From a virus (Duplodnaviria; Caudoviricetes), in IMG/VR virus record IMGVR_UViG_3300028175_000001: DNA of 64,000 nucleotides. The stretch is one strand, 5' to 3'. A program made the translations under genes and the position numbers. Under the pieces are notes generated by a model that saw nothing but the letters and a program-made list of their open reading frames with translations, searched no databases and was not told the DNA's origin. Below are positions 2,646-58,813 of the stretch, one piece after another; the first letter of the stretch is position 1; each line of letters begins with the position of its first letter.

Positions 2646-2653
2646 TATAAATA
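2646..2653 (+). promoter_or_regulatory. T4-type late promoter TATAAATA
   Basis: Exact consensus, 5 nt before the ATG at 2659. Confidence 0.75.
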
Positions 2654-2658
2654 GTCTT

Positions 2659-4870: not shown

Positions 4871-4877
4871 TTTTATC

Positions 4878-36173: not shown

Positions 36174-36605
36174 ATGAGTTACAAAGGGAAATATAAAATA
36201 AAGAATCTAAAAAAGTATAGGGGAGATCCTACTAAAATAACTTATCGTTCTTTATGGGAAAAAAAATTCATGAATTATTGTGAAGAAAATCCTATGATTA
36301 TTGAATGGTCGAGTGAAGAAATAGTTGTTCGCTATAGGTCTCCTATTGACAAAAAAATACATAGATATTTCCCTGATTTTTGGATTAAGGTAAAAAGAAA
36401 AACTGGTTTAACAGAAAACATTATTATAGAAGTCAAGCCCAAAAAACAAACATCTCCTCCCAAGAAACCCAAAAGAGTTACTAAGAGATATTTATCCGAA
36501 GTATACACCTTTGGTGTTAATGAGGCAAAATGGAATGCGGCTATAGAGTTCTGTAAGATCAGAAAATGGCGATTTGAAATCATTACGGAAGATCATCTTT
36601 TTTAA
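36174..36605 (+). CDS. gp4: Head completion nuclease (TnsA-like)
   Basis: KYRGDPTKITYRSLWE, WSSEEIVVRYRSPID...HRYFPDF, IIEVKP, NEAKW...ITED. Confidence 0.92.
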   Translation: MSYKGKYKIKNLKKYRGDPTKITYRSLWEKKFMNYCEENPMIIEWSSEEIVVRYRSPIDKKIHRYFPDFWIKVKRKTGLTENIIIEVKPKKQTSPPKKPKRVTKRYLSEVYTFGVNEAKWNAAIEFCKIRKWRFEIITEDHLF

Positions 36606-40853: not shown

Positions 40854-41741
40854 TTAATTATCTTCTGCTAATTTAGCAAAATAAGACATATCCTCTTCCT
40901 CTTCAGATGATGATTCATTGTTCGTTGGAGGAGTAAAAGGTTCTTCCGCAGTTTTTGGTTTAGATACAGGAGTACGTACCTCAGGAAGATTAGTTTCTAC
41001 TATAAGAACATTATCCAATCTCGCTTTCAAATCTTCAAAAGATTTAAATTGATCATCTGCAGTAAACTCTGTAAGAGCATACTCTGATTGCCAAATTTTT
41101 TCAAGTTCAGTTTCATCTTCTACGAGTTGTGTGCTTTTATCAAATTCGCTCTTATCGTAATTCCGATAACCTTCAACTTGTCGAATCTTTAATTTAAAAT
41201 TCGCCCCTTCCCAGAGATCAAAGGGATTTACAGGAGATTCATCTTCAAATTCTGGATTCATCACATCATTAATCTTATCAAAAATCTTTTTCCCAAATTT
41301 ATACAAAAAGACTTTTCCCTCGTTCTGAGGATTCTTTGAATCAGCAACAACATAAATGTTACTAATATAAGTTAATCGGCGCTTTTGCTTACGAGCAATA
41401 TCTTTGTTCGCCTCTATTCCAGAATTCCAAAGTTGAGAATTATACTCTGAAACAGGATCTTTCTTACCAAGAGTTGTCAAAGAGTTTTCAATGTACCATT
41501 GTCCTGTAGGTCCTTGAAAACCATGATTGAAGACTCTTGCCCATGGAACATCCTCTCCATCTACTGGGGGAAGAAATCGAATAACAGCAAATCCGTTTCC
41601 AGACTTGTCGATTTCAGGTTTCCAGAATCGATCATCGACATAACTCTTTGATTCAGAAGGAGTGTCGATCTTCTCGATTTCTTTGTGAAGATTTTGCATG
41701 AAGGATGCACGGGATTTTTTTAGTGCGGATAGTGTAGCCAT
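40854..41741 (-). CDS. gp32: Single-stranded DNA-binding protein
   Basis: DDRFWKPEIDKSGNGFAVIRFLP, GPTGQWYIENSLTTLG, YKFGKKIFDKI, NYDKSEF, YFAKLAED. Confidence 0.97.
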   Translation of the reverse strand: MATLSALKKSRASFMQNLHKEIEKIDTPSESKSYVDDRFWKPEIDKSGNGFAVIRFLPPVDGEDVPWARVFNHGFQGPTGQWYIENSLTTLGKKDPVSEYNSQLWNSGIEANKDIARKQKRRLTYISNIYVVADSKNPQNEGKVFLYKFGKKIFDKINDVMNPEFEDESPVNPFDLWEGANFKLKIRQVEGYRNYDKSEFDKSTQLVEDETELEKIWQSEYALTEFTADDQFKSFEDLKARLDNVLIVETNLPEVRTPVSKPKTAEEPFTPPTNNESSSEEEEDMSYFAKLAEDN

Positions 41742-41776
41742 ATTTACCTTTCGTATATCGGAATATTCGTTGTATA

Positions 41777-42367
41777 TTAAATTTTGTCTCGTAAAATCTT
41801 ACGAAACTTCGTCTTATCCACCTCCAAAAATGGAGTGTATTTCAAAACTCTATCTCTAAACTGAGGCCAGACAAAAGTTTCTTTTATCTTTTGATCCCAG
41901 TCAGGAACAAAGTTAAGTATCATATTAAGTATAGAAAAAGTTTCCATACAAATATATTTAGCAAGTGCTTGTTTCAGTAATAAAGGATGTTGACCTTTTT
42001 TAATTTTGAACCAATTTTCAAAATTTTCTTTGATCAACAATTTATCAATATCATTACTAAAAATATAACTCATGCTTTGTATTCTTTTTTGCCATTCTTT
42101 ATATTTAAATTCTGCTTGCGAATCAAGCGCATCGCCTATCCACAAATTTTCATTATCAATAAAGTTTGCAACAAAGAATTTTGATATCTCATCATCTTTA
42201 TAACTTTTTGACAATTTCACAAAAAAGATTTGATCATTGCGCTTTTTAAAAGCATTAAATGAGATTTTTCTTTTTTTATGTTTAAAATAATCATACTTTT
42301 TGGCGTGAAAATGAGTTTTGATTGAAACATATTCTTTATAGCAATCAAACGGATCCATTTTTATCAT
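41777..42367 (-). CDS. gp59: Helicase loader
   Basis: YVSIKTHFHAKKYDYFK, FKKRNDQIFFVKLS, FFVANF; synteny with gp32/gp33. Confidence 0.88.
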   Translation of the reverse strand: MIKMDPFDCYKEYVSIKTHFHAKKYDYFKHKKRKISFNAFKKRNDQIFFVKLSKSYKDDEISKFFVANFIDNENLWIGDALDSQAEFKYKEWQKRIQSMSYIFSNDIDKLLIKENFENWFKIKKGQHPLLLKQALAKYICMETFSILNMILNFVPDWDQKIKETFVWPQFRDRVLKYTPFLEVDKTKFRKILRDKI

Positions 42368-42588
42368 AGCCCCAATATCGTAGTAGTTTTTGGGAGATAA
42401 TGCAATGCAGTTACTTCTTCTCTTAATTTAGCTTTCAACGGCCCCTGAACAAGTTTTCCAATTGTCTGAGGTTCCATCTGAGTTTCTTCACAATAATGAC
42501 ATATTGCATCCCAATACGTCATTTTTTTACTACTAACAATATTTTCTATAATAATCGTAAAATCTAAAACTTTTAGTGTTTTAATCAT
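42364..42588 (-). CDS. gp33: Late-transcription coactivator
   Basis: IENIVSSKKMTYWDAICHYCEE...LKAKLREE. Confidence 0.85.
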   Translation of the reverse strand: MIKTLKVLDFTIIIENIVSSKKMTYWDAICHYCEETQMEPQTIGKLVQGPLKAKLREEVTALHYLPKTTTILGL

Positions 42589-45500
42589 TGTTCTCTATCG
42601 TATGTATTGTTTGTTCAATCGCTCCATAAACTTCTTCTGGTGAAATGTTTTTAGAGCATTCAAACATTCTATCAGTATTTTTATGATCCGGACACCATGA
42701 CCAATCACTAGGATCAAATTTATGTCGATTATAGCAACTATTGCAGACATCATTATTATGGAGTCTAACACATTTTGAATAAAATTCTGATTTAGGATTA
42801 CTAAATCCCGATATTAATATTACATGTTTATTTAAAGCCCATGCTAACCACGATAATCCAGACCCTAATCCAATAAAAAATTCAGCACCATCTAAAGTTG
42901 CTATTGTTTGATCTAAAGATCGATCATGTCTACCTATTGCATTTTTAGGTACTACATTAAAATATTCTCCTTGACCAAAAGAAGGATGTTTATCTATACA
43001 TACTACATTATAACCCTTTTCGGATAAAAAGTCAACCACTTTATCCCATCCACCCAAATAATTCCAATATTTCGCCTGAGCAGTTGATTGAGTACCAATA
43101 CATACATAAGGTTTTTCCAATTCTGTTTCTGTTTCTTTAACTTTTATTTTGCACCTGGTTTCTTTAAAATCTTTAATCCCAAGTATACCTGCACACAAAT
43201 TTTGCAAAGAAACGTCTTTCATGTCCACGGGAGACTGTGGACTGAGTTCAAAAAACCCTATTCTATAAGAAGATACAAAATCATTAAACCCAGATTCAGG
43301 AACTATAAAAGAAGTTTCAGGATATGATTCTACCAAATAATCATTCCAAAATGTACTACAATACATTTTACATTTATGCTTTTTACGAAATTCTTCAACG
43401 ACCGGCATCCACGCTAAAGTATCTCCCAATGCTACTGTATCAAACCACACAAAAACATTCTTATTTGTAAAATCTTGTTCATACTCAAAGTCTATATTTC
43501 CTGTTTCGATATTTATAGCTTCAACTCGCCAATTTACATAATAATCAAGACCACAAGCAACCCATCCCCCAGTAGAAATATCATTCGAATAATGAATTGC
43601 ATGAGTATCATTATCAATAAAATTAATTTTATACTCCGCAGGAATAGACCCCTTAACAGACAAATAGGGATTTTTTTGCATATTTAATTCAAAAATATTT
43701 TTCCCTGATATAGGCGTATTCTGATATGCGAACATTAATCGTTCTTTCATATCAAAGGGTTTAGAATATTTCAACTCTTTTGCTTCATAATAATATTTTT
43801 CCAATTCATCAAAAATCTTTTCCCAATCTCGTTCTCTAGCAAATTCTCTTGCAAGTTTTGAATGTTCATCATAATTATCTAAAACAGTTTTAACTTTTTC
43901 AGCAATGATATCAACATTTCTTGTACATATCGTTAAACCCTTTACGTATATGTCATCTTGTAGTGTTCCCACCACAGGTAAACCACAAGCCATTGCTTCA
44001 AGCACGGCCAAACAGGGTTGACCCGTTTCTAAAGAGGCCGGATGAATCAATACATGATGTTCATTTAATAAATCCCGTAATTCGTTTTTTTCTACATTAC
44101 CAACAAGAGTTATATCAATATGTCCTTTACATTCTTCTACAATATCATAAAATTTCTTATTATAATCTAAATGTATTGAATCTGGACCAACAATTGTTAT
44201 AGGAAGTCCTAATTTTTTTGCCGCTTGAATTGCTAAATGAAAACCCTTTCTATCATCGCCCCCGCCCACGCAAATTAATCGTATATTTTTTCTGTTTTCA
44301 TTAGGAAAGAAAAAATTTGTATCTACCCCATGATGAAGTCTTCTTAATTTTTCTGGATATAAAAAATAATCTATCATATCTTCAGTTGGTATTAAACTGA
44401 ACAAAGAATTTTTTATAGTTTCATTATTTGTCATATAATAATGAGAGTTTTTTCCATGTATCTTAACAAAAGCATCATGCATCGTAAAAATATAAGGTAT
44501 GCATCTATCTTTCAGCAAATCGTAAAACCCACCAGTATGATTATGAAACACATCATATTTTTCTAAATCATTTTGTGTTACATCATCTAACCATTTTAAA
44601 CTTACTTCATGCCCTCTACTTCGAGCAATTCTCATATATTGATAAATCACTTCTTCTAATCCCCCATATCCTTTGGGGGGAATGTCAAGACCACATCCAA
44701 CATGTATTTGCATTATTTTTAAATGATCTTCATGGACTTTTTCTTTTTCTTTTTCTAATGTATCACGCACCTGTATATTTTGTGTAGACAAAATAATTTC
44801 AGGAATTTCTATTATTCGATGACTATTAGAAATAAGATGGATTCGATTGTCTTGAGAATACCAAAAAACATTTCTATTATCTGCCGTAATAACGTCTTTT
44901 ATGTTTTCAATATTGTTAGACGGTATACGATTGTTTTCATGTAAATGCGTATTATCTGAAAAAAAACTTAATTCATGATTCGATACAGGTAATTTAGATA
45001 TAATATTTGATATTGTTATTGGAGTATCATTTAAATTTATTTTAACAAAAAAATAAGAAATGTTTTTCAGGTACTTATCAAAAACTATGTCATGATCGAA
45101 AAACAGATGTCTTACTTTTGATGTTTGTTCTTGATTATAATCAAAATTCAAAAAACTTACATGTTTTCTTTCTGTTTCATAATTTAATTTACTTAAATAA
45201 GTAGATTCTGCTAAATCATAGATATCATCAAAATACTTAATATTTCTAGGATATTCTAAAATGAAATTCTTTCTTTCTTCCTTTTCGTTTATAACTAATT
45301 GTGCTTCGCCACGAGGATTCCAATTTCTAAAATTTTCAGATTCTCCGTGTTCTCTTGCAAGATACGTTGTTCTGGGTATAGTCAACCATTTTCCATATCT
45401 CTCTAAATTCAATAACCATTGACCATCATTTGATAAACAAATATCACTGTCTTTGTGTTCAGGAAAACGTAATGCTGGTAGATTTTTAAATATTCTTAAA

Positions 45501-46000
45501 TATCCAAAAATATTTGATCGCTGAGGCCATAACTTTTCAAATCCTTCTAAAAAAGAGTTATTGTCTCTTGACATATACACGTTGTCTTTAAAATTATCAA
45601 AAATATTATTTGAATTTTTAGGCAAAACATCATGATATTTGTTTGCATTAAAATGGAGCAATACAGCTTCTGGAAACAAGTTAAAATAATGAATTATTTT
45701 TTCAAAAGTTCTCGGTAAAATTATATCATCAGCATCTAAATGACATACAATGTCGCCAACAGCGGGGATTTGGGGATTCCACCATATTTCTTTCTTGTGT
45801 TTGGGCTCGACGATTCTTATTCTACTATCTGTTCTTTTTAATTTTTCCATTACCGAACGGGTGTTATCAACAGAAAAATCATCAACAAGAATCCACTCCC
45901 AATGATCATAATTTTGATAAAAAACCGAACCCGCTAATTCATCTAAATAAAATTCAGCATTATAACAGGAAGTCACAAGTGATAATTTAAAATTCTTCAT
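42581..46000 (-). CDS. Tri-domain glycosyltransferase: GT2 + GT4 + Aah/TibC-type O-heptosyltransferase
   Basis: GT2: SLVTSCYN...LVDDFSVD...HLDADD. GT4: PPKGYGGLE...HPASLETGQPCLAVLEAMACGLPVVG. Heptosyltransferase: FDTVALGDTLAWMP, CIGTQSTAQAKYWN, EFFIGLGSGLSWLAWA, CNSC...WCP...EC. Confidence 0.85.
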   Translation of the reverse strand: MKNFKLSLVTSCYNAEFYLDELAGSVFYQNYDHWEWILVDDFSVDNTRSVMEKLKRTDSRIRIVEPKHKKEIWWNPQIPAVGDIVCHLDADDIILPRTFEKIIHYFNLFPEAVLLHFNANKYHDVLPKNSNNIFDNFKDNVYMSRDNNSFLEGFEKLWPQRSNIFGYLRIFKNLPALRFPEHKDSDICLSNDGQWLLNLERYGKWLTIPRTTYLAREHGESENFRNWNPRGEAQLVINEKEERKNFILEYPRNIKYFDDIYDLAESTYLSKLNYETERKHVSFLNFDYNQEQTSKVRHLFFDHDIVFDKYLKNISYFFVKINLNDTPITISNIISKLPVSNHELSFFSDNTHLHENNRIPSNNIENIKDVITADNRNVFWYSQDNRIHLISNSHRIIEIPEIILSTQNIQVRDTLEKEKEKVHEDHLKIMQIHVGCGLDIPPKGYGGLEEVIYQYMRIARSRGHEVSLKWLDDVTQNDLEKYDVFHNHTGGFYDLLKDRCIPYIFTMHDAFVKIHGKNSHYYMTNNETIKNSLFSLIPTEDMIDYFLYPEKLRRLHHGVDTNFFFPNENRKNIRLICVGGGDDRKGFHLAIQAAKKLGLPITIVGPDSIHLDYNKKFYDIVEECKGHIDITLVGNVEKNELRDLLNEHHVLIHPASLETGQPCLAVLEAMACGLPVVGTLQDDIYVKGLTICTRNVDIIAEKVKTVLDNYDEHSKLAREFARERDWEKIFDELEKYYYEAKELKYSKPFDMKERLMFAYQNTPISGKNIFELNMQKNPYLSVKGSIPAEYKINFIDNDTHAIHYSNDISTGGWVACGLDYYVNWRVEAINIETGNIDFEYEQDFTNKNVFVWFDTVALGDTLAWMPVVEEFRKKHKCKMYCSTFWNDYLVESYPETSFIVPESGFNDFVSSYRIGFFELSPQSPVDMKDVSLQNLCAGILGIKDFKETRCKIKVKETETELEKPYVCIGTQSTAQAKYWNYLGGWDKVVDFLSEKGYNVVCIDKHPSFGQGEYFNVVPKNAIGRHDRSLDQTIATLDGAEFFIGLGSGLSWLAWALNKHVILISGFSNPKSEFYSKCVRLHNNDVCNSCYNRHKFDPSDWSWCPDHKNTDRMFECSKNISPEEVYGAIEQTIHTIENND

Positions 46001-48650
46001 GGGTTGTCTCTATATCTTCATTATGTAATAAAGTAGTCCCATCCTTAAAAGAATTATCTAAATATGACTCTCCAGAACATTGAATTGAGATTGGCGATTT
46101 AACTATACCACATTTCTTATCATTAAAAATATTATTATTTAACCATAAATCATAAGTATCCCATTTTGCAGTTTTCAATTGTTTTTTAAAATAAGTTCTT
46201 CTAGTTTCGTCTGTGGAAAGTAAATAACAATGCGCTTCAGACATTCTATCTGTTACACCGAAAAATTCATAATTTTCATGTTCCCAATCAGGAATTCTTT
46301 TTCCGAAAGACATATAATATAAATTATGCTGATTCATATCATCTAACCGGTCCATAATTGATCTATGAACTTCGTGTACTGGTTTTATAAAAATAGCATC
46401 ACATTCACAAAATAAAACGGCATCAAAGTCTTCATTTAAATGTTCATTTATAGCAGATTTGTGAGCAGAAAAATTACCATAATGAGCAGGTGTTAATTTA
46501 TATTCGCCCGATTTCATTTGCACATCATTTGGTCTAGCACATGTTTTTTTCGGGGGAAAATTTTCATATAAAGGATTCACCATTTGCACATATGACCAAT
46601 CTGAATATTCAGATAATTTTTTAAGATGTGTTATTGATTTTTTTTCTCTTTCTGAATCCACATCAACAAGCATATGAACTATTTTTATTTTTGGACGTCT
46701 TATTGCCCACAAATTACCCAATTCGCCATTAGTTGTTACTTGAGAATCAGCAATAACTTGATATCCCAAACTTTCTAATCTCGTTATAAAATTAGTTGCA
46801 TGAAGTTTCATTTCACCCTCAACACCAAACGGATGTGCTTCCATAGAAAGTTTTCTCAATTTATATTTAAAAAAATCATCATGAATCACTGGTAATATGT
46901 CCCATTCTGCCCCTTCACAATCCAATTTTAACGCATCTATTCTATCAATACTATTATTTTTCATAAATTGTTCAAACGTAACACAATCAACAATTTCTTT
47001 TTTTATTACTCCCTGATTTTCTGTATTCTTTGCGCTATTATTAAAATTATCATAAAAAGAATTACATGAACTGGATCCAATAGTAATAAATTCTCTACTG
47101 TTATTATCAAAAGAAATTGCTAAATTGTGTTTTTCAATATTTCTATATTCTCCCAAATTTTTACATAAAATATCAAATGTTGTTTTAGTGGGTTCAATTG
47201 TGTGAATATGCGAAACTCCTTGATTTAAAGCATACATATCAAAAAAACCATAATGACCACCAATATCAATTACAGTATCCCCTTCTGTCAAATTTAATTT
47301 TTTATAATACTGTAATATCAAAGTTTCATAAAAAGTATACCAGGAAGAAGGATCGTCCGCTATTCCATGAAAATGTTTATTTTTTCCGAGAATTTTAATA
47401 TCAACTTCTGATTTAAGTGGAAATGTTTTTTCATATAAAAGATGATGATTATCTAACAAATTCACATCACTTAAATTAGAATAATAATCTTTAGGAGCAT
47501 CAAATATCTTTACTATAAACCCGTTAACTACATCTTTTCCGCAATGCGGCTGACACCACATTGAGTTTGTTAAAATGTGTGATCTATAGGCTAATAACCC
47601 AGTATCTATTTCATATAAGCACAACAATTTCTCATGAAAACATTCATATAAGCTTAAAAAATGAAAAGTTATTTTGGTATCTTCAATCGAACAACTTACA
47701 AGACGATCACTAATGTTCAGTAGTCTAGACATTTTAATTAAATTAATATTCAAATCATCAGAAAGCCAAGTAACTTTTTCGTCATATTTGTCAATATAAG
47801 TGTCAAGTTTATGTGCTAATACAGGTATATTCCAAGACAAAGCTTCTTTCACAACTAATGGATTCGTTTCTTTATCAAAACTAGTTCCCTTAGACGTAAA
47901 TAAAAATAAATCCATACATGAATAAAATTTTTCTACATCAGACCTTTCCCCCCAAACTATACAATTATCGGGCAAGTTTTTTGTTAAAGGTTCCCAATAT
48001 TCTTTAAAGTTTTCCGCAAGATTCCCTACAAAATGAAATTGTACGTCAGGCAAAAGTTTAGCGTATTCAATAATTTCCACTTGATTTTTTCTTGATGTCC
48101 ATAATCCAACATTTAATACATGTTTCAATGCAGGATCAACACCTAATTCTCTCAATGCAACATCTCTTTCTTTTTCTGATGTTTTTTTATCGACGGGATA
48201 CTCTATAACACATGCAGGAACATCTATTGATCTAAATTTTATTAGTTGATTATCACTACAAAATAAAAATTTATCTGGAAAAAATTTCTTTGACGAAGGA
48301 TCGAAGGAAGAATCATGAGATGTTTCAAAAATCAAATAATTTCTATTTTTCTTATAAATTTTTTCAGCTATTTTATCATCCACGAAAAATTCAGGCATTT
48401 CTTCAAAATGAATAATGTCGGGTTTTATTTTATCTAAATATGTTAAAATATCAGATTTATCATCGGACAAAGTTATTAACTGATCATTTAGAATGTTTAA
48501 TATTTTATCTTTTTGAACTCTATAAGACCCATAATCATTATACTCTATTACATAAATATCATTATCATTGTATAATAATTCGATTTTTTTAAGAAGATAT
48601 TGGGGGGCTCCGCCCGTAGATAAATGAGGAGTAATATATAAAATTTTCAT
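45987..48650 (-). CDS. Multi-domain protein: GT4 + FkbM-family methyltransferase + GT25-like domain
   Basis: MKILYITPHLSTGGAPQYL...NPLVVKEALSW; VIDIGGHYGFF...IDALKLDCEGAEWDIL; HYGNFSAH...LFCECDA. Confidence 0.8.
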   Translation of the reverse strand: MKILYITPHLSTGGAPQYLLKKIELLYNDNDIYVIEYNDYGSYRVQKDKILNILNDQLITLSDDKSDILTYLDKIKPDIIHFEEMPEFFVDDKIAEKIYKKNRNYLIFETSHDSSFDPSSKKFFPDKFLFCSDNQLIKFRSIDVPACVIEYPVDKKTSEKERDVALRELGVDPALKHVLNVGLWTSRKNQVEIIEYAKLLPDVQFHFVGNLAENFKEYWEPLTKNLPDNCIVWGERSDVEKFYSCMDLFLFTSKGTSFDKETNPLVVKEALSWNIPVLAHKLDTYIDKYDEKVTWLSDDLNINLIKMSRLLNISDRLVSCSIEDTKITFHFLSLYECFHEKLLCLYEIDTGLLAYRSHILTNSMWCQPHCGKDVVNGFIVKIFDAPKDYYSNLSDVNLLDNHHLLYEKTFPLKSEVDIKILGKNKHFHGIADDPSSWYTFYETLILQYYKKLNLTEGDTVIDIGGHYGFFDMYALNQGVSHIHTIEPTKTTFDILCKNLGEYRNIEKHNLAISFDNNSREFITIGSSSCNSFYDNFNNSAKNTENQGVIKKEIVDCVTFEQFMKNNSIDRIDALKLDCEGAEWDILPVIHDDFFKYKLRKLSMEAHPFGVEGEMKLHATNFITRLESLGYQVIADSQVTTNGELGNLWAIRRPKIKIVHMLVDVDSEREKKSITHLKKLSEYSDWSYVQMVNPLYENFPPKKTCARPNDVQMKSGEYKLTPAHYGNFSAHKSAINEHLNEDFDAVLFCECDAIFIKPVHEVHRSIMDRLDDMNQHNLYYMSFGKRIPDWEHENYEFFGVTDRMSEAHCYLLSTDETRRTYFKKQLKTAKWDTYDLWLNNNIFNDKKCGIVKSPISIQCSGESYLDNSFKDGTTLLHNEDIETTHEEF

Positions 48651-48669: not shown

Positions 48670-48688
48670 CTAAATATAAATATAAATA
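48670..48688 (+). promoter_or_regulatory. Three overlapping late-promoter motifs (CTAAATA, TATAAATA x2)
   Basis: CTAAATATAAATATAAATA upstream of the + strand ORF at 48741. Confidence 0.65.
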
Positions 48689-48740: not shown

Positions 48741-49706
48741 ATGACACAATACAGACACTTATATTGGGATGCAGTAAACAAAGACCTACGACAATATTCT
48801 GATACCGAACTAGAAATTCTTAGTTATTTTCTAAGAAAAAGATATGCGGCTCTTCTAGATGCAGGTACAGGGTATCCAGGCGAAGTAAAAACTTCAGGAT
48901 CATCTCCTTTTGTTTCCATAGGAACAGCTACTAATGGATATAGAATATCCGGAAGCATGACCGAACCAGATGACACAGGCAATTATCAAGGCGCAGAACC
49001 AGACACGATAATTGGCCAACCGGATCAAACAACTTTCACATCTTCATCCGTAACATTTTATCAAAATATGAACCATTCTACAGCGGCCCCCAGTTCAGCA
49101 ACCATAAACAATTCTGGATTATTATATTGGACCTCTCCGGATTTAAAAATAGGCCCAACCACAGAAACAGATCTTCGAGATACGCTTGCTACTCACTGCC
49201 TTCAACAAATGCAAACAGGTGATGAAGTTGGATCTTATAGAGTTGCAGTATCTAATCCAGGAGGCGGAACCTGGTCTGATAAAGGAGCATTTTTTACTGA
49301 TACAATATACGCTAGTAGTCCTTATGGTGCATATAAACTATGGTTAAAAACAGCAAATACTACTGAACCATCAACTCCAGATAATTATACTAGATGGGAC
49401 GGCACTAATAACGAAATACAATTAGAATCTAGCACTTCTTATGATGCTACAGCTAAATTAATAAATGATGTTTATTTAAACATAATTGCAAGAAGACATC
49501 TCGTATATAATGTTGCAACTTCAATTGTTGGAACAAATAAAGGAACTTTTTACGATAAAAAATATCAAAGCACGACTGATACATTAACTGGACCATCAGG
49601 GACACCCTCGATTTATACCAGAACATGGACACCTTCAGGAGCCATAATTGATTCCAGCGGACCCTATTATTTTACTACAAACGGCGAAAGAACACCAACA
49701 CCATAA
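48741..49706 (+). CDS. Ser/Thr/Gly-rich putative virion structural protein
   Basis: Late promoters upstream; S/T/G-rich composition with Y/W residues; no enzyme motifs seen. Confidence 0.55.
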   Translation: MTQYRHLYWDAVNKDLRQYSDTELEILSYFLRKRYAALLDAGTGYPGEVKTSGSSPFVSIGTATNGYRISGSMTEPDDTGNYQGAEPDTIIGQPDQTTFTSSSVTFYQNMNHSTAAPSSATINNSGLLYWTSPDLKIGPTTETDLRDTLATHCLQQMQTGDEVGSYRVAVSNPGGGTWSDKGAFFTDTIYASSPYGAYKLWLKTANTTEPSTPDNYTRWDGTNNEIQLESSTSYDATAKLINDVYLNIIARRHLVYNVATSIVGTNKGTFYDKKYQSTTDTLTGPSGTPSIYTRTWTPSGAIIDSSGPYYFTTNGERTPTP

Positions 49707-49717
49707 AAGGAAACATA

Positions 49718-50530
49718 ATGATTACTCTTAACGAAGCATTTCATGCCTCTGATTACGAAACATGGTTAACATATTGGAGTCGATGCAAAGTCAATACAAT
49801 TTTCCATAAATATCCAGATTATACAGCAGAAGATAATCCTGTATTAGTACGATTTAGAGAAATTCCCGATGGCGAAGATGTAGAAATACCTCATCCAGAC
49901 ATTGAAGTAAAACAAATCGAAACTCATCTAGACACATATTGTTTCAAGACACTACTAAAAGCATTACCCGAAAATCACAGAAACAAAACTTTAGAGGGAA
50001 TACAACTACAATCAGCAAATTTTCATGACGCCATGGCTAAAAGAGAAAAAGATTTTGATGAATTTTTAGAATATAAACTAGCCGGTAATCTTAACATAGA
50101 AACTATTGATAACACAAAACCCATTTCATGGGAATCAATAAGAACTGCTTCAACAGAAGAATTGTTTCAAACAAAACTTGAAATATTTGAAACACAACCA
50201 GTTCAAGAAAGCGATAAAAAAGAATATCGTTCTAATATTAGAAAAGCATCATCAATTATTGAAGCAATGCACTGGTACTATTTAATAGTCAATGATATTG
50301 AAATGTCCACGTCAGAAAAATCAGAAGAAAAAATTCCCGAAAATATAGATATACTACTTGCTGATATTTCTTCAGAAACACTATTTAAATATAAATTACA
50401 GCTTTTCGAAAAAGAAGAAATTCAAAATAGCGAAAACAAAAAAGCTAGAAGCAAACTTAGAAAAGCAACTAATTTAATTGAACTATTTTCAGCTTATAAT
50501 GAAGTGATATTATTAGATAAAAAAGAATAA
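49718..50530 (+). CDS. Hypothetical protein with a duplicated ~45-aa helical repeat
   Basis: STEELFQTKLEIFE...RSNIRKASSIIEAM versus SSETLFKYKLQLFE...RSKLRKATNLIELF. Confidence 0.7.
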   Translation: MITLNEAFHASDYETWLTYWSRCKVNTIFHKYPDYTAEDNPVLVRFREIPDGEDVEIPHPDIEVKQIETHLDTYCFKTLLKALPENHRNKTLEGIQLQSANFHDAMAKREKDFDEFLEYKLAGNLNIETIDNTKPISWESIRTASTEELFQTKLEIFETQPVQESDKKEYRSNIRKASSIIEAMHWYYLIVNDIEMSTSEKSEEKIPENIDILLADISSETLFKYKLQLFEKEEIQNSENKKARSKLRKATNLIELFSAYNEVILLDKKE

Positions 50531-53030: not shown

Positions 53031-53501
53031 TTAAATGTTATTTTGTTGCATTATCCACCCAACTAAAGAATATTTTATTCCTTTTAAAACAGGCTTTACT
53101 CTATGTTCTAATTTCGAATCAAACCTAAGACAATCTCCCACACTCAATTCTATGGAATCACTGTCTTTAATTTCAAAAGATCCTCCTCGATATTCAGCAT
53201 TTAAAGGTATAACACATGTTTCTATTCTTTTACAAGTTGACCGAGCAGTATCAAAATCGTTATGCCAATGATAATAATTTAACTTAGAATATTCTGAAAA
53301 CTGAAATACCATATTAGAACTATTAAATTTTTTTTCCAATTCAAAATCATTTAACCAAATAAAAACCTTAGATCTTCTTTCATCAGAAAATTCACTATTT
53401 ACAACTCTAGCAAAACGAACCTTTTTTCTACAAGATACGATAAGATCAAAACATTCTTCTTTTGTCAATAAGTTTCTAATAATCTGTATTTTTTTGTCCA
53501 T
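53031..53501 (-). CDS. 2OG-Fe(II) oxygenase (prolyl-4-hydroxylase-like)
   Basis: HWHND (HxD), YRGGSF, HRVKPVLKGIKYSLVGW. The start region overlaps the upstream gene, so the exact start is uncertain. Confidence 0.85.
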   Translation of the reverse strand: MDKKIQIIRNLLTKEECFDLIVSCRKKVRFARVVNSEFSDERRSKVFIWLNDFELEKKFNSSNMVFQFSEYSKLNYYHWHNDFDTARSTCKRIETCVIPLNAEYRGGSFEIKDSDSIELSVGDCLRFDSKLEHRVKPVLKGIKYSLVGWIMQQNNI

Positions 53502-54031
53502 TCTTCTGTTTTCATTGCAGGCGCAAAATCATGATTAAATAAACAAATTGAATGTTCCAATTCGTCTCTATTCCAAGGATAAGACCAACACACTTTATCA
53601 TAAATTTTATAATCTATTTCTCTGTAAATATATTCATCGATGCCTTTCCAATATTTTACTCTGCTATAATCTTCATCTTCATAAAATTTATCATAAATAT
53701 GAACATGATTTCCCTTCCACGACATTATTGAAGAGTTTAAAGGGGTATGAAGCGAATCTCTCCACCAGGCAGTAAGAAGAGTAAAATCGTCTTTAATTAA
53801 ATGAGATATGGGACCCTTAATAATTATATCTAAATCGAAATATAAATAATTTACATCATTAACACATTCTTTAAACATTTGCAATTTATCAAAAACAGCA
53901 CCTTCTCCATCTCTTATTATATAAACGTTTTCATATTTCAATTTTCCATGTTCACGAATCATATGAAGAATATTATCAACATACCACTCATCATATTTAT
54001 TTCCCGTACATACGAGAACAACGGTTACCAT
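53465..54031 (-). CDS. GT-A (GT8-like) transferase, paralog 2
   Basis: VLVCTGNKYDEWYV, DKLQMF, LYFDLDIII, NSSIMSW, GIDEYI. Confidence 0.65.
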   Translation of the reverse strand: MVTVVLVCTGNKYDEWYVDNILHMIREHGKLKYENVYIIRDGEGAVFDKLQMFKECVNDVNYLYFDLDIIIKGPISHLIKDDFTLLTAWWRDSLHTPLNSSIMSWKGNHVHIYDKFYEDEDYSRVKYWKGIDEYIYREIDYKIYDKVCWSYPWNRDELEHSICLFNHDFAPAMKTEEWTKKYRLLETY

Positions 54032-54879
54032 TTCCCTATCACCATAAATCTGTCATATAACGGTAAGGAGCGTTTTCCTTTATATAAAACATCTTTAATT
54101 TGATTTTTTTCAACCAACTCATTAACATCTTTTACACAATTTATATGATCATCTAACTCAAAATAATTATTTGATTGTATTGCTATAGTAGGTTTTATTG
54201 GATAATCTTTATAGCAGTCTTTCATTAAAGCAATATCAGCCATATGTTCTGAAGAAGTGTTTATTATTAATTGCCGTCTTCTCAATTCTGTACGTTCAAA
54301 AAAATCTCCAAATTGTGCAATTTTAAATTTTTCATCAAAGTGATTTTTATACTGTGCAAATATTTTATGACAATTTTCATCCAAATCATATAAATCAATT
54401 TGAGATATGTTGAAATTTTTCGACAACATTTCAATTAATGGATATCCAAACCACGAACCGATTATATCAATATGAAGATCCCCCGAATATTGTATTTTTT
54501 TTAGTTCTTGAGAAAGCCACAATTTAGATTCATATTGACCTTGAGATACGGAATCATCAAAATTATTAGAATACGACGGCAGATTATTATTAACCCACTG
54601 ATTAACCCAATAATATGGAGTTTCTCGATTATCATTTTCACACATAGAAATTTTTTCTTTATGTTCTCCAATAGTATCTCTAATCGAACCAATTTCTGTA
54701 TTGTGTTCTCCAATAGTATCTCTAATCGAACCAATTTCTGTATTGTGTTTTCCGATTTCTGTATTGTGTTCTCCAATAGTGTCTTTAATCAAACCAATTT
54801 GATCATTATAAGATCCTATTTCAATATTATGAAGACTTATATCGTTTTTATTTTTTCGCCAATTATAAATTTGTTCCAT
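54025..54879 (-). CDS. Class I SAM methyltransferase-like protein with an N-terminal heptad repeat (start probably at 54879)
   Basis: QYESKLWL, IDIIGSWFG, DLYDLD, INTSSEHM, QSNNY...HINC, YDRFMVIG. Confidence 0.65.
   Translation of the reverse strand: MEQIYNWRKNKNDISLHNIEIGSYNDQIGLIKDTIGEHNTEIGKHNTEIGSIRDTIGEHNTEIGSIRDTIGEHKEKISMCENDNRETPYYWVNQWVNNNLPSYSNNFDDSVSQGQYESKLWLSQELKKIQYSGDLHIDIIGSWFGYPLIEMLSKNFNISQIDLYDLDENCHKIFAQYKNHFDEKFKIAQFGDFFERTELRRRQLIINTSSEHMADIALMKDCYKDYPIKPTIAIQSNNYFELDDHINCVKDVNELVEKNQIKDVLYKGKRSLPLYDRFMVIGKW
54660..54820 (-). repeat. 21-nt-unit tandem repeat encoding IG-x5 heptads
   Basis: Perfect 42-nt duplication at 54662-54703 and 54704-54745 plus degenerate 21-nt units; protein IGSYNDQ IGLIKDT IGEHNTE IGKHNTE IGSIRDT IGEHNTE IGSIRDT IGEHKEK. 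Confidence 0.9.
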
Positions 54880-55282
54880 ATACACAATATTGTTTATATT
54901 TTTTATTTTTACATTGTATTTCGAATGAATCAAAAACTTCTGTTAATTCATTATCATCGACCAGTTTATTAATCGAACAAATAGGATTACAATCACCATT
55001 ATGTTCTTTATCATCACCTTTTAAAATGAAAATTCCTTTATGCATTCGACCCACAGGATATGTTTTTTCACAATTATAATGTAATACACAAGTATGCAAT
55101 TTAACATCATCAAACACAAAATCATTACACCTAACATTTGACATATATCTAAAATTAATATCATAATTTATATTATCAATTTCCATATCCAATCCCCTCA
55201 AAGTCTTGATAAACTTAAAATTGGGACAACATAATACAGATATTTTTTCGTGATTTACAGCCCAATAGAATAAGTTTTCCAT
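54863..55282 (-). CDS. Short methyltransferase-like paralog of the downstream gene
   Basis: LHYNCEKTY...ILKGDDKEHNGDCNPICSINKLVDDN parallels INTSSEHM...IQSNNYFELDDHINCVKDVNELVEKN. Confidence 0.45.
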   Translation of the reverse strand: MENLFYWAVNHEKISVLCCPNFKFIKTLRGLDMEIDNINYDINFRYMSNVRCNDFVFDDVKLHTCVLHYNCEKTYPVGRMHKGIFILKGDDKEHNGDCNPICSINKLVDDNELTEVFDSFEIQCKNKKYKQYCVYGTNL

Positions 55283-56061
55283 AATTCCTGTACAGGTGAT
55301 TCATGTAATTCATAGTGTTTGATATCTTTCATATTTTTATTATTGAAAAGATGAGATGTATTGAACAATGTCACTTTATTTTTTAATTGATATTGTTCTT
55401 TATTATAGTTTGAAAATAGGTCTTTTTCCCACAAATTCAATTTATTATTTCTATGATGCTGATAAAACAAATATTTGTCTAAACTTTTATATGTCCATTT
55501 TATCTTTTCCCAATTATTTTTAGTATAAGTTAAAAGCCAAGAAGCTGTCCCTTTATCCCATGCAACAAATGATGAGTTTGTATGACAAGACACTCCGCGA
55601 CCATAATTGAATAAACTAATTTTTTCATAATCATTCCAATAGTTCCATATAAATGTAATATTATGATGTTTTCTTGTTATCAATTCGGTTATATCTTCAT
55701 GAACCAATACATCTAAATCTATCCAAATATTTTTATCATATTCGTCATTATCAATAAGAAATAATTTTTCATATGTAAAAACTCTCTTTGTATCATATGG
55801 CCTAAGTTCTTGTATATCCTTTGTTTCGATTCTAGAAGATATTCCTCTAGAATCATCAGTATAGCACACAAAATGAAATGGAACTCGACAATATTTCAAC
55901 AATCCACCATACGTTCTATTAACATAATCAAAATTATATTTTGTACCCCACTTGAGACAATTAATTTTAATCTTATTCATAGATAAACAATGGCTCCATT
56001 TTTTTGAACGACTCATCAGGATCATCATATGGCACGTCTTTGACAAACCAAGATTTATCAA
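55255..56061 (-). CDS. GT-A (GT8-like) transferase, paralog 3 (true start likely MNKIKINC near 55980)
   Basis: CLKWGTKY...FVCYTDD, YEKLFL, IWIDLDVLV, NSSFVAW, LDKYL. Confidence 0.7.
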   Translation of the reverse strand: MINLGLSKTCHMMILMSRSKKWSHCLSMNKIKINCLKWGTKYNFDYVNRTYGGLLKYCRVPFHFVCYTDDSRGISSRIETKDIQELRPYDTKRVFTYEKLFLIDNDEYDKNIWIDLDVLVHEDITELITRKHHNITFIWNYWNDYEKISLFNYGRGVSCHTNSSFVAWDKGTASWLLTYTKNNWEKIKWTYKSLDKYLFYQHHRNNKLNLWEKDLFSNYNKEQYQLKNKVTLFNTSHLFNNKNMKDIKHYELHESPVQELWKTYSIGL

Positions 56062-56806
56062 TTTTATTATACATTATAACATCATAAACTAATTGGGCAA
56101 ACTTCATGTTTTGTTCTGATGTCATGTGATTTAATAAAAAAATATCACTGTTGGACGCTTGACCAACTATATGCCCAATGGGAATTTTCACATAATCAAA
56201 ATTACTCGAATCCAAAGAATCAAATATTAACGAATTCAATAATTTGGTAGAGGTTATATTAAAATTTTTATAATAACTTATATAATGATCTAAACTAAAA
56301 CAAGTGAAAACTATAAATCTAATATTTTTAAAGTTGTTAGCTATTAATCGCAAAAAAGAAATATTTTTTACATTTTCATACAAAAACATTGGTCCTAAAG
56401 ATTGTGCAATAATTTTAATTTCATTACCAAGTTTTAAAATACTTTCGAAGTTCTGAGACGTGTTCCCCGCAACTTTTTTCATGAAATGAGCATCTCCCGC
56501 ATAATCATCTTCTGCTATTTGAAAAATACCATAAGCCGAATCATTTTTATTTTTCAAAAACGAAAAGTTTAGTCTTTTTTGATCTGACAAAGCCACAAAT
56601 ACTGTATCATGCGGTTTAATAAGTTCTTCTTCTAATTGAAAAACAAGTTTTGTTAAGGCATCATTGGGACCCGATCCGGCCTTCCCAAAACCCCGCACGT
56701 TTTCCTTTTTCAATACTGACAATCGATGAGGCCAACAACATTTGTCTGTAACATTTTCACAAATACAAGCAAAACTATCTCCAAAAATATGAATTGTCAT
56801 TTCCAC
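55973..56806 (-). CDS. SGNH/GDSL-like hydrolase or acyltransferase
   Basis: N-terminal IFGDSF, GKAGSGPN, C-terminal NHMT...N..FA. Confidence 0.5.
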   Translation of the reverse strand: MEMTIHIFGDSFACICENVTDKCCWPHRLSVLKKENVRGFGKAGSGPNDALTKLVFQLEEELIKPHDTVFVALSDQKRLNFSFLKNKNDSAYGIFQIAEDDYAGDAHFMKKVAGNTSQNFESILKLGNEIKIIAQSLGPMFLYENVKNISFLRLIANNFKNIRFIVFTCFSLDHYISYYKNFNITSTKLLNSLIFDSLDSSNFDYVKIPIGHIVGQASNSDIFLLNHMTSEQNMKFAQLVYDVIMYNKIDKSWFVKDVPYDDPDESFKKMEPLFIYE

Positions 56807-57837
56807 TGATCTCCAAATGTATCAAACCCTGTACCGCATTTTTCTGCACACACTATTGATTTTCCCTGTGAACAAGAACTCATATTCCAAGACTGTTCTA
56901 TTTTTCTGAAAAAACTTCCTTCTATTATTTCATTTAATGGTTTATATAAAGCATTAATGTTTTTAATATCATCTAGATAATACCATATCTGGTTCTGTCC
57001 TAATTGTTCATATAATTTATATAATTTTCCAGCAGTCCAACAACAGGGGGTAACCAATCCCTCTGCTGAAATATAAATTTCTCTTGACTTTAAAGATTTA
57101 CATTCTATTCCAGTACTGTCTAAATAATTTTGAAAAGTGCCGTGATAGTTAAGCAGTTTATCATATTCGTTTACACTTTTATTTTGATGTTCTTTTTTGA
57201 TTGGAGGCTTAATTTCATTTCCTTTAATAGTTGTTTTTTTGAATATTTTATCATCTTTATAGCTTTGAACCCATCTACCAGTTTTTTTCTTTATAAAATC
57301 AAGACCGAATAATTTAGCCATACGTTCTGCTTCTTCCACTTGATGCTCATTGTGTTCAAATATCAAAAACACCCAAACACCTTTTCCGCCTGCTTGCGTA
57401 AACACATCCATTGAATTTTCAACTCGGGCCCAATCAACATTTACTCGATATAAATGATTCGTATCATCCAAACCATCTACCGAAAAAGACACTCTACCGT
57501 GATGTCCAAAAATTCCTGCAAGTCTTTTCCACCAATCATCTGATCGTCCTCCAGCATTTGTAGTCATATGAAGATATAAGTCTTTATTATTATATCGCAA
57601 CCATTCATATATGTCAAGGGAGTCTTTTGCCGCCAGGGGGTCTCCATGATTGCCACACATGAGAAAACTAGTCAATTGTTGTGCTAAACTAACATCGATA
57701 ATTTGTTTAAATTGATCAATAGAAATTTCAGCATTCTTTATGTGTGGATTATTGGTTCTATCACACATAGGACACATTGCTTGACATTTTTGTGTAGGCT
57801 CAAAATGTATATGTCTTATATCATTAAGTCTGTACAT
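56797..57837 (-). CDS. Radical SAM enzyme with a C-terminal SPASM/twitch-like domain
   Basis: KCQAMCPMC (CX3CX2C), GNHGDP, MTTNAG, SVDG; C-terminal PCC...C...CAEKC. Confidence 0.9.
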   Translation of the reverse strand: MYRLNDIRHIHFEPTQKCQAMCPMCDRTNNPHIKNAEISIDQFKQIIDVSLAQQLTSFLMCGNHGDPLAAKDSLDIYEWLRYNNKDLYLHMTTNAGGRSDDWWKRLAGIFGHHGRVSFSVDGLDDTNHLYRVNVDWARVENSMDVFTQAGGKGVWVFLIFEHNEHQVEEAERMAKLFGLDFIKKKTGRWVQSYKDDKIFKKTTIKGNEIKPPIKKEHQNKSVNEYDKLLNYHGTFQNYLDSTGIECKSLKSREIYISAEGLVTPCCWTAGKLYKLYEQLGQNQIWYYLDDIKNINALYKPLNEIIEGSFFRKIEQSWNMSSCSQGKSIVCAEKCGTGFDTFGDQWK

Positions 57838-58797: not shown

Positions 58798-58813
58798 AAT
58801 TTTCTAAAACAAT

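What the first reader, a model, noticed from the sequence alone, without database searches (positions are those of the whole stretch)
42581..43700. Phage-encoded Aah/TibC-type protein O-heptosyltransferase domain
Family motifs are visible (ALGDTLAWMP, STAQAKYWN, FIGLGSGLSWLAWA), as is the four-Cys iron-binding signature CNSC...WCP...EC. Bacterial members transfer heptose from ADP-heptose onto Ser/Thr of beta-rich autotransporter adhesins. This phage has huge Ser/Thr-rich beta-structured baseplate and fibre proteins, so it may heptosylate its own virion or host surface proteins. It also implies an ADP-heptose-producing Gram-negative host.
Basis: partly seen in the sequence, partly recalled or inferred. 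Interest (0 to 1): 0.8.

Follow-up and report, generated by a model that had tools for sequence, protein, structure and literature searches.

The report
Phage TibC-type protein glycosyltransferase domain
An uncultured marine T4-like phage encodes a true relative of the E. coli enzyme that coats adhesins with heptose, fused to two other sugar transferases, and comparison across phages suggests it sugar-coats the phage's own serine-rich collagen-like fibres, which no experiment has tested.

Summary
Window 42581-43700 (minus strand) encodes the last ~375 residues of a 1139-aa ORF (42581-46000). This part is a TibC/Aah-type domain: TIGR04414 scores 315 bits against a cut-off of 200; TibC in the PDB gives E 9e-67; the AF2 model (pLDDT 96) matches TibC at TM 0.87. 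The catalytic Asp, the phosphate and heptose contacts and the four iron-finger Cys are kept. The adenine-contacting Arg is Thr.

The domain is fused to GT2 and GT4 domains. It follows a GT4-FkbM methyltransferase gene and precedes gp33-gp59-gp32. This arrangement is conserved in about 40 marine viral contigs, down to 46% identity.

No autotransporter-type target repeat was found. Instead, phages with this domain carry proline-free Gly-Ser/Thr-Ser/Ala collagen-like giant proteins:
- Two close relatives have them beside the portal gene.
- Four of four near-complete records with the domain have them; none of five related phages without it do.
- Of 42 viral contigs picked only by such repeats, 17 hold the domain.

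The most likely role is O-glycosylation of the phage's own fibres. The sugar is unproven, and no phage record encodes GmhA.

Cultured phages almost never have the domain (4 of 50,697 records), and I found no paper on it. This scan has noted the same pairing before on many other genomes.

The parts
42581..46000 (-). ORF of 1139 aa (P0001): a GT2 + GT4 + TibC/Aah-type triple glycosyltransferase. It has no transmembrane segment.
   Evidence: ORF list and translation. Pfam GT2 at residues 7-129, GT4 at 480-720, GT9 at 953-1070, weak TibC_1st at 788-828. TIGR04414 at 788-1130. Highest Kyte-Doolittle 19-residue window is 1.68, inside the GT4 core motif. Full-length homologues of 1125-1440 aa occur on many metagenome contigs.
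42584..43708 (-). TibC/Aah-type (BAHT) domain, residues ~765-1139: an eight-strand N-terminal beta-barrel, a GT-B catalytic core, the thumb segment and the iron finger.
   Evidence: TIGR04414 315 bits against cut-off 200. TibC E 9e-67. AF2 pLDDT 95.9 with strands E10-E94 forming the barrel. Foldseek TM 0.87 to 4RB4/4RAP.
43421..43423 (-). Codon of Asp860, equivalent to the TibC catalytic base Asp110.
   Evidence: Alignment to TibC. Invariant in 262 of 262 domain sequences. Role of Asp110 taken from PMC4358343.
43070..43084 (-). Thr973 and Lys977, equivalent to the TibC beta-phosphate contacts Thr226 and Lys230.
   Evidence: roles from PMC4358343.
42848..42907 (-). Trp1051 (= TibC Trp305, heptose O4), Gly1046 (= TibC Pro300, the D,D/L,D-heptose selectivity site) and Thr1032 (= TibC Arg286, adenine N1 contact, not conserved).
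   Evidence: Trp is invariant. The Arg286 position is Thr in nearly all of the phage clade; across the family it is R 86, T 74, V 39, I 30.
42656..42745 (-). Four-Cys iron-finger motif: Cys1086, Cys1089, Cys1103 and Cys1115 (= TibC Cys339, 342, 358 and 370).
   Evidence: Cys at each position in 249-250 of 262 sequences. Role from PMC4358343.
43766..44713 (-). GT4 (GT-B) domain, residues ~430-745.
   Evidence: PF00534 E 2e-15, PF13692 and PF13439.
45251..46000 (-). GT2 (GT-A) domain, residues 1 to ~250, with a DAD motif at residue 89.
   Evidence: PF00535 E 2e-14; motif search.
45987..48650 (-). Upstream gene of 887 aa, overlapping P0001 by 14 nt: GT4 domain (~138-305) + FkbM methyltransferase (459-636) + an unassigned C-terminal domain.
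   Evidence: Pfam and NCBIfam. Its GT4 domain is 49-52% identical in distant phages that carry the TibC-type domain.
40854..42588 (-). Downstream genes on the same strand: gp33 late-transcription coactivator (42364-42588, 8-nt overlap with P0001), gp59 helicase loader (41777-42367) and gp32 ssDNA-binding protein (40854-41741).
   Evidence: Pfam. The same gene order is present in every viral locus of the marine clade wherever the flanking DNA is long enough to show it.

Best explanation
The C-terminal domain of the 1139-aa protein is an active, soluble TibC/Aah-type (GT9-like, inverting GT-B) protein O-glycosyltransferase. I infer that, in the infected cell's cytoplasm, it puts a first sugar on Ser/Thr of the phage's own proline-free collagen-like fibre proteins. 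That sugar is most likely heptose from host ADP-heptose. The fibre proteins are Gly-Ser-Ala / Gly-Ser-Ser / Gly-Thr-Ser repeats, 1398 and 1662 aa in a close relative, encoded next to the portal gene about 50 kb away. The fused GT4 and GT2 domains, and the GT4-FkbM protein encoded just upstream, would then extend and O-methylate the sugar, giving glycan-coated fibres on the virion.

Shown: family membership, intact catalytic and iron-finger residues, the fusion architecture, conserved synteny, and the genome-wide co-occurrence of this domain with such fibres.

Inferred: the acceptor, the donor sugar, the order of the steps, and any link to the neighbouring radical-SAM sugar island.
For: Identity and integrity of the domain:
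- TIGR04414 scores 315 bits against a cut-off of 200.
- TibC gives E 9e-67.
- The model matches TibC at TM 0.87, against 0.40-0.55 for LPS heptosyltransferases.
- Asp860, Thr973, Lys977, Trp1051 and the four Cys are kept. Their roles come from PMC4358343.
- There is no transmembrane segment.

Conservation:
- The order GT4-FkbM / GT2-GT4-BAHT / gp33 / gp59 / gp32 is kept in about 40 viral loci, down to 46% BAHT identity.
- In distant myoviruses the domain again travels with the same GT4 type and usually a methyltransferase, mostly FkbM. It sits next to a tail sheath gene or a collagen-like fibre gene.

Fibre association:
- Close relatives G001:C1 (79% identical domain) and G004 (84%) carry two giant proteins with G 21%, S 22% and P below 2%. 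In G001:C1 these lie directly after sheath-tube-portal.
- Similar proteins lie 0-4 kb from the domain in L052/53, L059, G006 and Mel-JY01.
- Four of four near-complete records with the domain have such a protein.
- Five T4-like marine phages without the domain have none. P-SSM2 has only Pro-rich GP[TAPS] collagen repeats.
- Reverse test: 42 IMG/VR contigs of 30 kb or more were picked only by a DNA pattern for six G-[STRC]-[AS] triplets. Of these, 17 carry TIGR04414. Among records at least 80% complete, 4 of 5 with true Ser/Thr repeats carry it, against 0 of 8 false hits of the pattern.
- Baseline: 4 of 50,697 cultured-phage records.

Donor:
- Six of 27 phage records with the domain encode an RfaE-domain-II-like adenylyltransferase. 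One is over the equivalog cut-off, and one lies between the BAHT gene and the fibre gene.
Against: - No sugar has been shown on any phage fibre. The link is by co-occurrence and adjacency only, and many of the phages may share both traits by descent.
- TibC's known acceptors are Ser in beta-helix loops of autotransporters, not collagen-like triplets.
- In this clade the fibre genes are about 50 kb from the enzyme gene. I could not read the window's own fibre genes; they lie outside the window. I saw them only in relatives, and an earlier scan note reports them for this genome.
- The enzyme genes sit in a run with gp33/gp59/gp32, which are early or middle genes in T4. No late-promoter motif precedes them.
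- The Arg that contacts adenine N1 in TibC is Thr here.
- No GmhA was found in any of 27 phage records carrying the domain. The window and the 161-kb relative contig show no ADP-heptose genes.
- The host, and therefore its heptose supply, is unknown.
Confidence: 0.55

Rival explanations
1. The domain glycosylates other virion proteins of the phage, such as the large Ser/Thr-rich baseplate and fibre proteins in the window, the tail sheath, or the small Ser/Thr-rich orphan protein at 48741-49706. It does not act on the collagen-like fibres.
For: The window's structural proteins have 20-25% Ser+Thr. In two other phage lineages the module sits directly upstream of the tail sheath gene. The orphan P0266 is divergently transcribed from the glycosyltransferase genes behind a tandem TATAAATA motif. 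It is syntenic across the clade and has an invariant Thr/Ser-rich motif.
Against: No autotransporter-type repeat or any family hint was found in these proteins. Two of them belong to PHROG families of cultured phages, which almost never have the domain. P0266 has no recognisable fold and is limited to this clade, whereas the module is far more widespread. Nothing comparable to the fibre association supports these targets.
Confidence: 0.17
2. The enzymes remodel the host cell surface during infection, acting on a host adhesin, S-layer protein or surface glycan. This could, for example, block superinfection or stop progeny sticking to debris.
For: The genes are co-oriented and overlapping with gp33/gp59/gp32, which are early or middle genes in T4, and no late-promoter motif precedes them. 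The GT2 domain weakly resembles GtrB-type O-antigen conversion enzymes. From my own knowledge: T4-like cyanophages such as P-SSM2 are known to carry LPS-type gene clusters.
Against: The proteins have no membrane segment. The domain is TibC-type, not LPS-type: TIGR02193 scores only 24-28 bits. The module recurs in phages of very different habitats and hosts, including a Microcystis phage, so a target carried by the phage fits better. It also co-occurs with a phage-encoded fibre type.
Confidence: 0.15
3. The domain acts on a non-protein acceptor: phage DNA (T4-style base glycosylation) or a small-molecule or oligosaccharide product of the neighbouring radical-SAM sugar island.
For: It lies between replication genes and a very large sugar-tailoring island, which has five radical-SAM ORFs in the window alone. 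Earlier scan notes describe about 50 kb of such genes. From my own knowledge: phage glycosyltransferases that hypermodify DNA are known.
Against: Every characterised member of TIGR04414 is a protein Ser O-heptosyltransferase (PMC4358343). The beta-barrel and the iron finger, which bind the protein substrate in TibC, are retained. No thymidylate-synthase/hydroxymethylase family gene is found in the 161-kb relative or in Mel-JY01. The module also occurs in phages whose 10-kb flanks show no such island.
Confidence: 0.08

Closest known systems
TibC (ETEC H10407; PDB 4RAP, 4RB4) and Aah (AIDA-associated heptosyltransferase): the bacterial autotransporter heptosyltransferase (BAHT) family, TIGR04414
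   Same: About 33-39% identical over the whole protomer. Same fold, with N-terminal beta-barrel, GT-B core and iron finger (TM 0.87). The catalytic Asp, the Thr/Lys phosphate contacts, the Trp heptose contact and the four Cys are conserved.
   Different: Encoded by a lytic-type T4-like phage rather than a proteobacterial pathogen. It is the C-terminal third of a 1139-aa GT2-GT4 fusion rather than a stand-alone ~400-aa protein. No adjacent autotransporter and no strand-loop-strand target repeat. TibC Arg286 is Thr, Pro300 is Gly, and the thumb-tip Phe-Val is Glu-Tyr. Dodecamer formation is untested. The likely acceptor is a collagen-like repeat.
LPS core heptosyltransferases WaaC/WaaF/WaaQ (CAZy GT9)
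   Same: Same GT-B superfamily and PF01075 hit. These enzymes use ADP-heptose as donor.
   Different: Only 24-28 bits to TIGR02193 against a cut-off of 185, and TM 0.40-0.55. They lack the beta-barrel and iron finger and act on lipid A-Kdo rather than protein.
Serine-rich-repeat adhesin glycosylation in Gram-positive bacteria (GtfA/GtfB plus extending transferases). Analogy from my own knowledge; GtfA/B appears only as a weak structural hit.
   Same: A set of several glycosyltransferases dedicated to a very long Ser-rich repeat protein, with cytoplasmic priming on Ser followed by stepwise extension.
   Different: The priming enzyme is of a different family (GT4-type GtfA rather than GT9-like BAHT). 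The substrate is a bacterial adhesin exported by an accessory Sec system, not a phage protein.
Glycosylated collagen-like proteins and virus-encoded capsid glycosylation: Bacillus BclA, chlorovirus PBCV-1 A064R (two transferases + methyltransferase), and mycobacteriophage virion glycosylation (Freeman et al. 2023, cited in PMC12801897). From my own knowledge.
   Same: The concept is shared: collagen-like Gly-X-Thr/Ser repeats carrying O-glycans with methylated sugars, and viruses encoding multidomain transferase-methyltransferase proteins to decorate their own particle.
   Different: No sequence relationship was tested here. None of these systems uses a TibC-type enzyme.

Membership tests
BAHT / TIGR04414 (Aah-TibC autotransporter O-heptosyltransferases) | Scores above the curated equivalog cut-off over the full profile. 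| tested here: met
   315 bits (319 for the domain alone) against a cut-off of 200, covering profile positions 27-373 of 374.
BAHT / TIGR04414 | TibC protomer fold: N-terminal flattened beta-barrel plus a GT-B catalytic domain. | tested here: met
   AF2 model with pLDDT 95.9 and eight N-terminal strands. Foldseek TM 0.87 to 4RB4/4RAP over about 385 columns; the next families score 0.55 or less.
BAHT / TIGR04414 | Catalytic base Asp110 and the donor contacts Thr226, Lys230 and Trp305. | tested here: met
   Asp860, Thr973, Lys977 and Trp1051. Asp and Trp are invariant in 262 sequences. Roles from PMC4358343.
BAHT / TIGR04414 | Arg286, which contacts adenine N1 and was proposed to set ADP specificity. 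| tested here: not met
   Thr1032 here and in nearly all of the phage clade. Across 262 family sequences the position is R 86, T 74, V 39, I 30, so it is not conserved outside the enterobacterial members. The assignment rests on sequence alignment only.
BAHT / TIGR04414 | Four-Cys iron finger (Cys339, 342, 358, 370). | tested here: met
   Cys1086, 1089, 1103 and 1115. Iron binding itself cannot be tested here.
BAHT / TIGR04414 | Beta-hairpin thumb and assembly into a ring-shaped dodecamer. | tested here: inconclusive
   The thumb segment aligns without gaps, but the tip Phe265-Val266 is Glu-Tyr. A 760-residue N-terminal fusion would have to fit around any ring. The homodimer prediction gave no verdict.
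BAHT / TIGR04414 | Acts on an adjacent autotransporter with strand-loop-strand repeats. | tested here: not met
   The neighbours are glycosyltransferase, gp33, gp59 and gp32 genes. The eight largest structural proteins of the window show no autotransporter-repeat family match in NCBIfam. For comparison, Aah sits directly before AIDA-I on an E. coli plasmid.
BAHT / TIGR04414 | Transfers heptose from ADP-heptose to Ser. | not testable with these tools
   Inferred from homology only. No GmhA in 27 phage records. RfaE-domain-II-like genes in 6 of them, but none in this phage's window or in the 161-kb relative.
LPS heptosyltransferases (GT9: TIGR02193, TIGR02201) | Scores above the family cut-off. 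| tested here: not met
   24-28 bits against a cut-off of 185 for TIGR02193; 13-16 bits against 170 for TIGR02201.

The most novel reading that the evidence does not exclude
The TibC-type domain is the protein-priming enzyme for the phage's large neighbouring radical-SAM sugar-tailoring island. Together, about 60 kb of the genome would build a heavily modified, methylated O-glycan on giant Gly-Ser-Ala/Ser collagen-like fibres anchored near the portal or head. That would give an abundant marine phage a self-made glycan coat, and it would reveal a mostly viral branch of the BAHT family whose acceptors are collagen-like triplets rather than beta-helices.
Probability: 0.3. Interest if true: 0.85.

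Novelty: new variant of a known kind. Interest (0 to 1): 0.65.

Why it matters
Protein heptosylation by TibC/Aah has been treated as a virulence speciality of a few proteobacterial pathogens. Here the same enzyme type sits inside multidomain proteins of abundant, uncultured aquatic phages, and it is statistically tied to a distinct class of proline-free Ser/Thr collagen-like fibres.

If the inferred reaction is real, three things follow. Virion glycosylation would be common in marine and freshwater myoviruses. Collagen-like repeats would become a new acceptor class for this enzyme family. And there would be a concrete starting point (one enzyme, one substrate, and E. coli supplying ADP-heptose) for working out what the very large sugar-building islands of these phages make.

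Glycan-coated fibres could affect host recognition, particle stability, sticking to marine particles, and grazing or decay of viruses in the sea.

Tried and rejected
- Autotransporter-type target: NCBIfam scan of the eight largest structural proteins found no strand-loop-strand repeat family.
- ADP-heptose pathway in the phage: no GmhA in the window's ORFs or in 27 phage records with the domain. The gmhA-like hit in MAG G001 lies on another contig (C5), not on the phage contig C1.
- DNA-glycosylation idea: no PF00303 hydroxymethylase/ThyA family in the 161-kb relative or in Mel-JY01.
- Late-promoter timing: TATAAATA is not enriched in the window (11 found, 15 expected). None precedes the glycosyltransferase genes; a tandem copy faces the opposite, plus-strand ORFs. 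The sigma-70-type scan was no better than shuffles.
- Homodimer prediction of the domain (complex prediction, two copies): 'no answer', score 0.00. This is neither support nor evidence against.
- Neighbouring orphan P0266 as candidate acceptor: AF2 pLDDT 84, but no Pfam, PHROG or NCBIfam family and no fold match in PDB (Foldseek; VIA-align best Z 4.3) or BFVD. It remains a side lead.
- Literature: no paper in the searchable library describes a phage TibC/Aah-type enzyme. Two phage papers that mention virion glycosylation contain no mention of heptose or heptosyltransferase.
- Megablast of the locus against cultured phages: no match.
- No whole genome is held for the window, so its own fibre genes could not be read.
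Full report
**What is there.** The finding lies at the 3' end of a minus-strand ORF, window 42581-46000, encoding 1139 aa.
- Pfam finds three glycosyltransferase domains: GT2 (residues 7-129), GT4 (480-720) and GT9 (953-1070). There is also a weak hit to the TibC N-terminal domain.
- NCBIfam TIGR04414, the Aah/TibC equivalog, matches residues 788-1130 over nearly the whole profile. It scores 315 bits against a curated cut-off of 200. The LPS heptosyltransferase models reach only 13-28 bits.
- TibC (PDB 4RAP/4RB4) is the only solved relative by sequence, at E 9e-67.
- An AlphaFold2 model of residues 760-1139, built on a 70-sequence alignment, has pLDDT 95.9. It starts with an eight-strand barrel, like the TibC protomer.
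- Foldseek places TibC first at TM 0.87 over about 385 columns. WaaC, WaaF and other GT9 structures follow at TM 0.40-0.55.

**Catalytic equipment.** I took residue roles from the TibC structure paper (PMC4358343). I mapped them with the HMMER alignment and a 262-sequence domain alignment.
- Conserved: Asp860 (= catalytic base Asp110), Thr973 and Lys977 (beta-phosphate contacts), Trp1051 (heptose O4), and Cys1086/1089/1103/1115 (iron finger). Asp and Trp are invariant across the family.
- Different: TibC Arg286, which contacts adenine N1, is Thr1032 here and in nearly all of the phage clade. The stereoselectivity position Pro300 is Gly1046. The thumb-tip Phe-Val is Glu-Tyr.
- The GT2 domain has a DAD motif. 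Neither this protein nor its neighbour has a membrane segment.

**Genomic setting.**
- The ORF overlaps by 14 nt the end of an 887-aa gene encoding GT4 + FkbM methyltransferase + an unassigned C-terminal domain.
- It overlaps by 8 nt the start of gp33, which is followed by gp59 and gp32.
- The rest of the window holds T4-type neck, sheath-stabiliser, baseplate and hub genes, and five radical-SAM ORFs.
- gp32 is about 55% identical to those of cyanomyoviruses and of OM43 phage Melnitz. The phage is therefore a divergent, uncultured marine T4-like myovirus. No whole genome is held for it.

**Distribution.**
- Only 4 of 50,697 deposited phage records contain a homologue of the domain: Microcystis phage Mel-JY01 and three huge metagenomic phages. 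No PHROG family covers it.
- It is common in metagenomes. The 1.84-billion-representative library gives 745 clusters at E below 1e-30, most of them multidomain proteins of 600-2000 aa.
- IMG/VR gives 44 loci.
- In every marine locus with enough flank, the order GT4-FkbM / GT2-GT4-BAHT / gp33 / gp59 / gp32 is kept, down to 46% identity of the BAHT domain. That domain diverges faster than the GT2, GT4 and gp32 parts.
- All six homologues whose context I could read lie in phage-like contigs. Architectures vary: stand-alone, GT4-BAHT, GT2-BAHT and GT2-GT4-BAHT. An 887-type GT4 gene is always nearby, and a methyltransferase gene is nearby in all but one. In two lineages the module sits directly before the tail sheath gene.
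- One genome-collection hit, a 161-kb contig binned into a Chloroflexota MAG, carries the T4-type phage genes and is probably a mis-binned phage.

**The acceptor.**
- The window's eight largest structural proteins show no autotransporter repeat family. Their 20-25% Ser+Thr content is not distinctive.
- I had seen Pfam Collagen hits beside the enzyme in two unrelated loci. Earlier notes of this scan proposed collagen-like fibres as the target on other genomes, and reported a giant collagen-like fibre in this same genome outside my window. I treated these as leads and tested them.
- Close relatives: G001:C1 (79% identical domain) and G004 (84%) each carry two giant ORFs made of Gly-Ser-Ala, Gly-Ser-Ser and Gly-Thr-Ser triplets. 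In G001:C1 they are 1398 and 1662 aa, with G 21%, S 22% and P below 2%. They sit immediately after tail sheath, tube and portal, about 50 kb from the enzyme gene.
- Distant phages with the domain have similar proline-free Ser/Thr triplet proteins. They lie 0-4 kb from the domain in L052/53, L059 (with an S74 chaperone domain), G006 and Mel-JY01. G005 and G007 have them elsewhere on the contig.
- All four near-complete records with the domain have one.
- Controls: five T4-like marine phages without the domain have none. P-SSM2 has only classical Pro-rich collagen repeats.
- Reverse test: I picked IMG/VR contigs solely by a DNA pattern encoding six G-[S/T/R/C]-[A/S] triplets. Of the 42 searchable contigs of 30 kb or more, 17 carry TIGR04414, 16 of them above the cut-off.
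- I sorted those contigs by real repeat content. Among records at least 80% complete, 4 of 5 with true Pro-free Ser/Thr repeats have the domain, against 0 of 8 false hits of the pattern. Most negatives with true repeats are fragments under 40% complete.
- The samples are small, I chose the controls, and shared descent is not corrected for. Even so, the association holds in both directions and is backed by physical adjacency in several lineages.

**The donor.**
- GmhA, the committed step of heptose synthesis, is absent from all 27 phage records with the domain that I searched, and from the window.
- Six of the 27 encode a small adenylyltransferase whose best family is RfaE domain II. One scores 183 bits, over the cut-off. 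One, at 123 bits, lies between the BAHT-FkbM genes and the fibre gene in a 99%-complete phage.
- This fits an ADP-activated sugar supplied largely by the host, but it does not prove heptose. This phage's clade shows no such gene, and its host is unknown.

**Mechanism proposed.** A soluble three-transferase protein and its GT4-FkbM partner act in the cytoplasm on the phage's collagen-like fibre chains.
- The TibC-type domain, with Asp860 as base, would put the first sugar on Ser/Thr.
- The GT4 and GT2 domains would extend it, and FkbM would methylate it.
- The adjacent radical-SAM sugar island might supply unusual donors. I saw only five of its radical-SAM ORFs; earlier scan notes describe it as much larger.

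The enzyme's identity and integrity are shown. The acceptor, the donor and the order of steps are inferred.

**Rivals.** Other virion proteins, host surface targets, and non-protein acceptors are weighed in the Rival explanations section. The main arguments against them:
- the domain is specifically TibC-type, and the substrate-binding barrel and iron finger are retained;
- there are no membrane segments;
- the module recurs across phages of unrelated hosts;
- no hydroxymethylase gene is present in the relatives.

**Novelty.** Annotation pipelines already name such proteins 'autotransporter strand-loop-strand O-heptosyltransferase'. I found no paper that describes the family in phages or links it to collagen-like proteins. 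This scan has reported the same pairing on many other genomes, so this window is one more member of a recurrent, apparently unpublished pattern. Here it takes the form of a triple-transferase fusion in a marine T4-like clade, with the fibre genes distant rather than adjacent.

Noticed in passing
window 53031-63397 (-): Five ORFs with Radical_SAM hits (56797-57837, 58814-59887, 59884-61236, 61236-62174, 62123-63397) and a 2OG-Fe(II) oxygenase (53031-53501), interspersed with ORFs that match no family. This is the edge of a much larger sugar-tailoring island described in earlier scan notes.
   Followed up: no
window 48741-50530 (+): Two ORFs of 321 and 270 aa, transcribed divergently from the glycosyltransferase genes behind a tandem TATAAATATAAATA late-promoter-like motif (48675-48688). 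The first (P0266) is Ser/Thr-rich and limited to this phage clade. It has an invariant LWLKTANTTEPS-type motif, folds confidently (pLDDT 84) and matches no known fold or family.
   Followed up: partly
L106:16169-16975 (G001:C1, relative of this phage): An Asp/Asn beta-hydroxylase-like ORF (PF05118, E 3e-5) lies just downstream of the two giant collagen-like genes. It may be a second modification enzyme for the fibres.
   Followed up: no
L050 (Microcystis phage Mel-JY01, PP395634.1) 1-8430: The 1226-aa protein annotated only as 'methyltransferase FkbM' has a GT4 domain and a C-terminal TibC-type domain. A 1016-aa open frame of Gly-Thr-Ser/Gly-Ser-Ser triplets on the plus strand at the record start overlaps two minus-strand 'hypothetical protein' CDSs, so the deposited annotation there is probably on the wrong strand.
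   Followed up: partly
L048 / G001:C1 (PAAV01000055.1, 161 kb, 'Chloroflexota bacterium NAT137' MAG): The MAG's longest contig carries T4-type sheath, tube, portal, gp32, gp59 and gp33 genes and the whole glycosyltransferase module. It is a phage genome fragment binned into a bacterial MAG, so it gives no reliable host signal.
   Followed up: partly
loci L023-L039 versus the window: Across the clade the TibC-type domain diverges faster (46-51% identity) than the fused GT2 (66-70%) and GT4 (63-71%) domains and gp32 (~68%). This would fit tracking of a fast-evolving acceptor.
   Followed up: no
proteins P0122, P0123, P0125, P0126 (representative library): Some metagenomic proteins of 920-1030 aa contain three or four tandem TibC-type catalytic stretches. 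One of them gave the top bit score to the query, 643 bits summed over three stretches. The one context retrieved, for P0122, was uninformative.
   Followed up: partly
window 36174-36605 (+): A TnsA-like endonuclease N-terminal domain ORF sits among the baseplate and tail genes. It is conserved at the same place in distant relatives (L001, L051).
   Followed up: no
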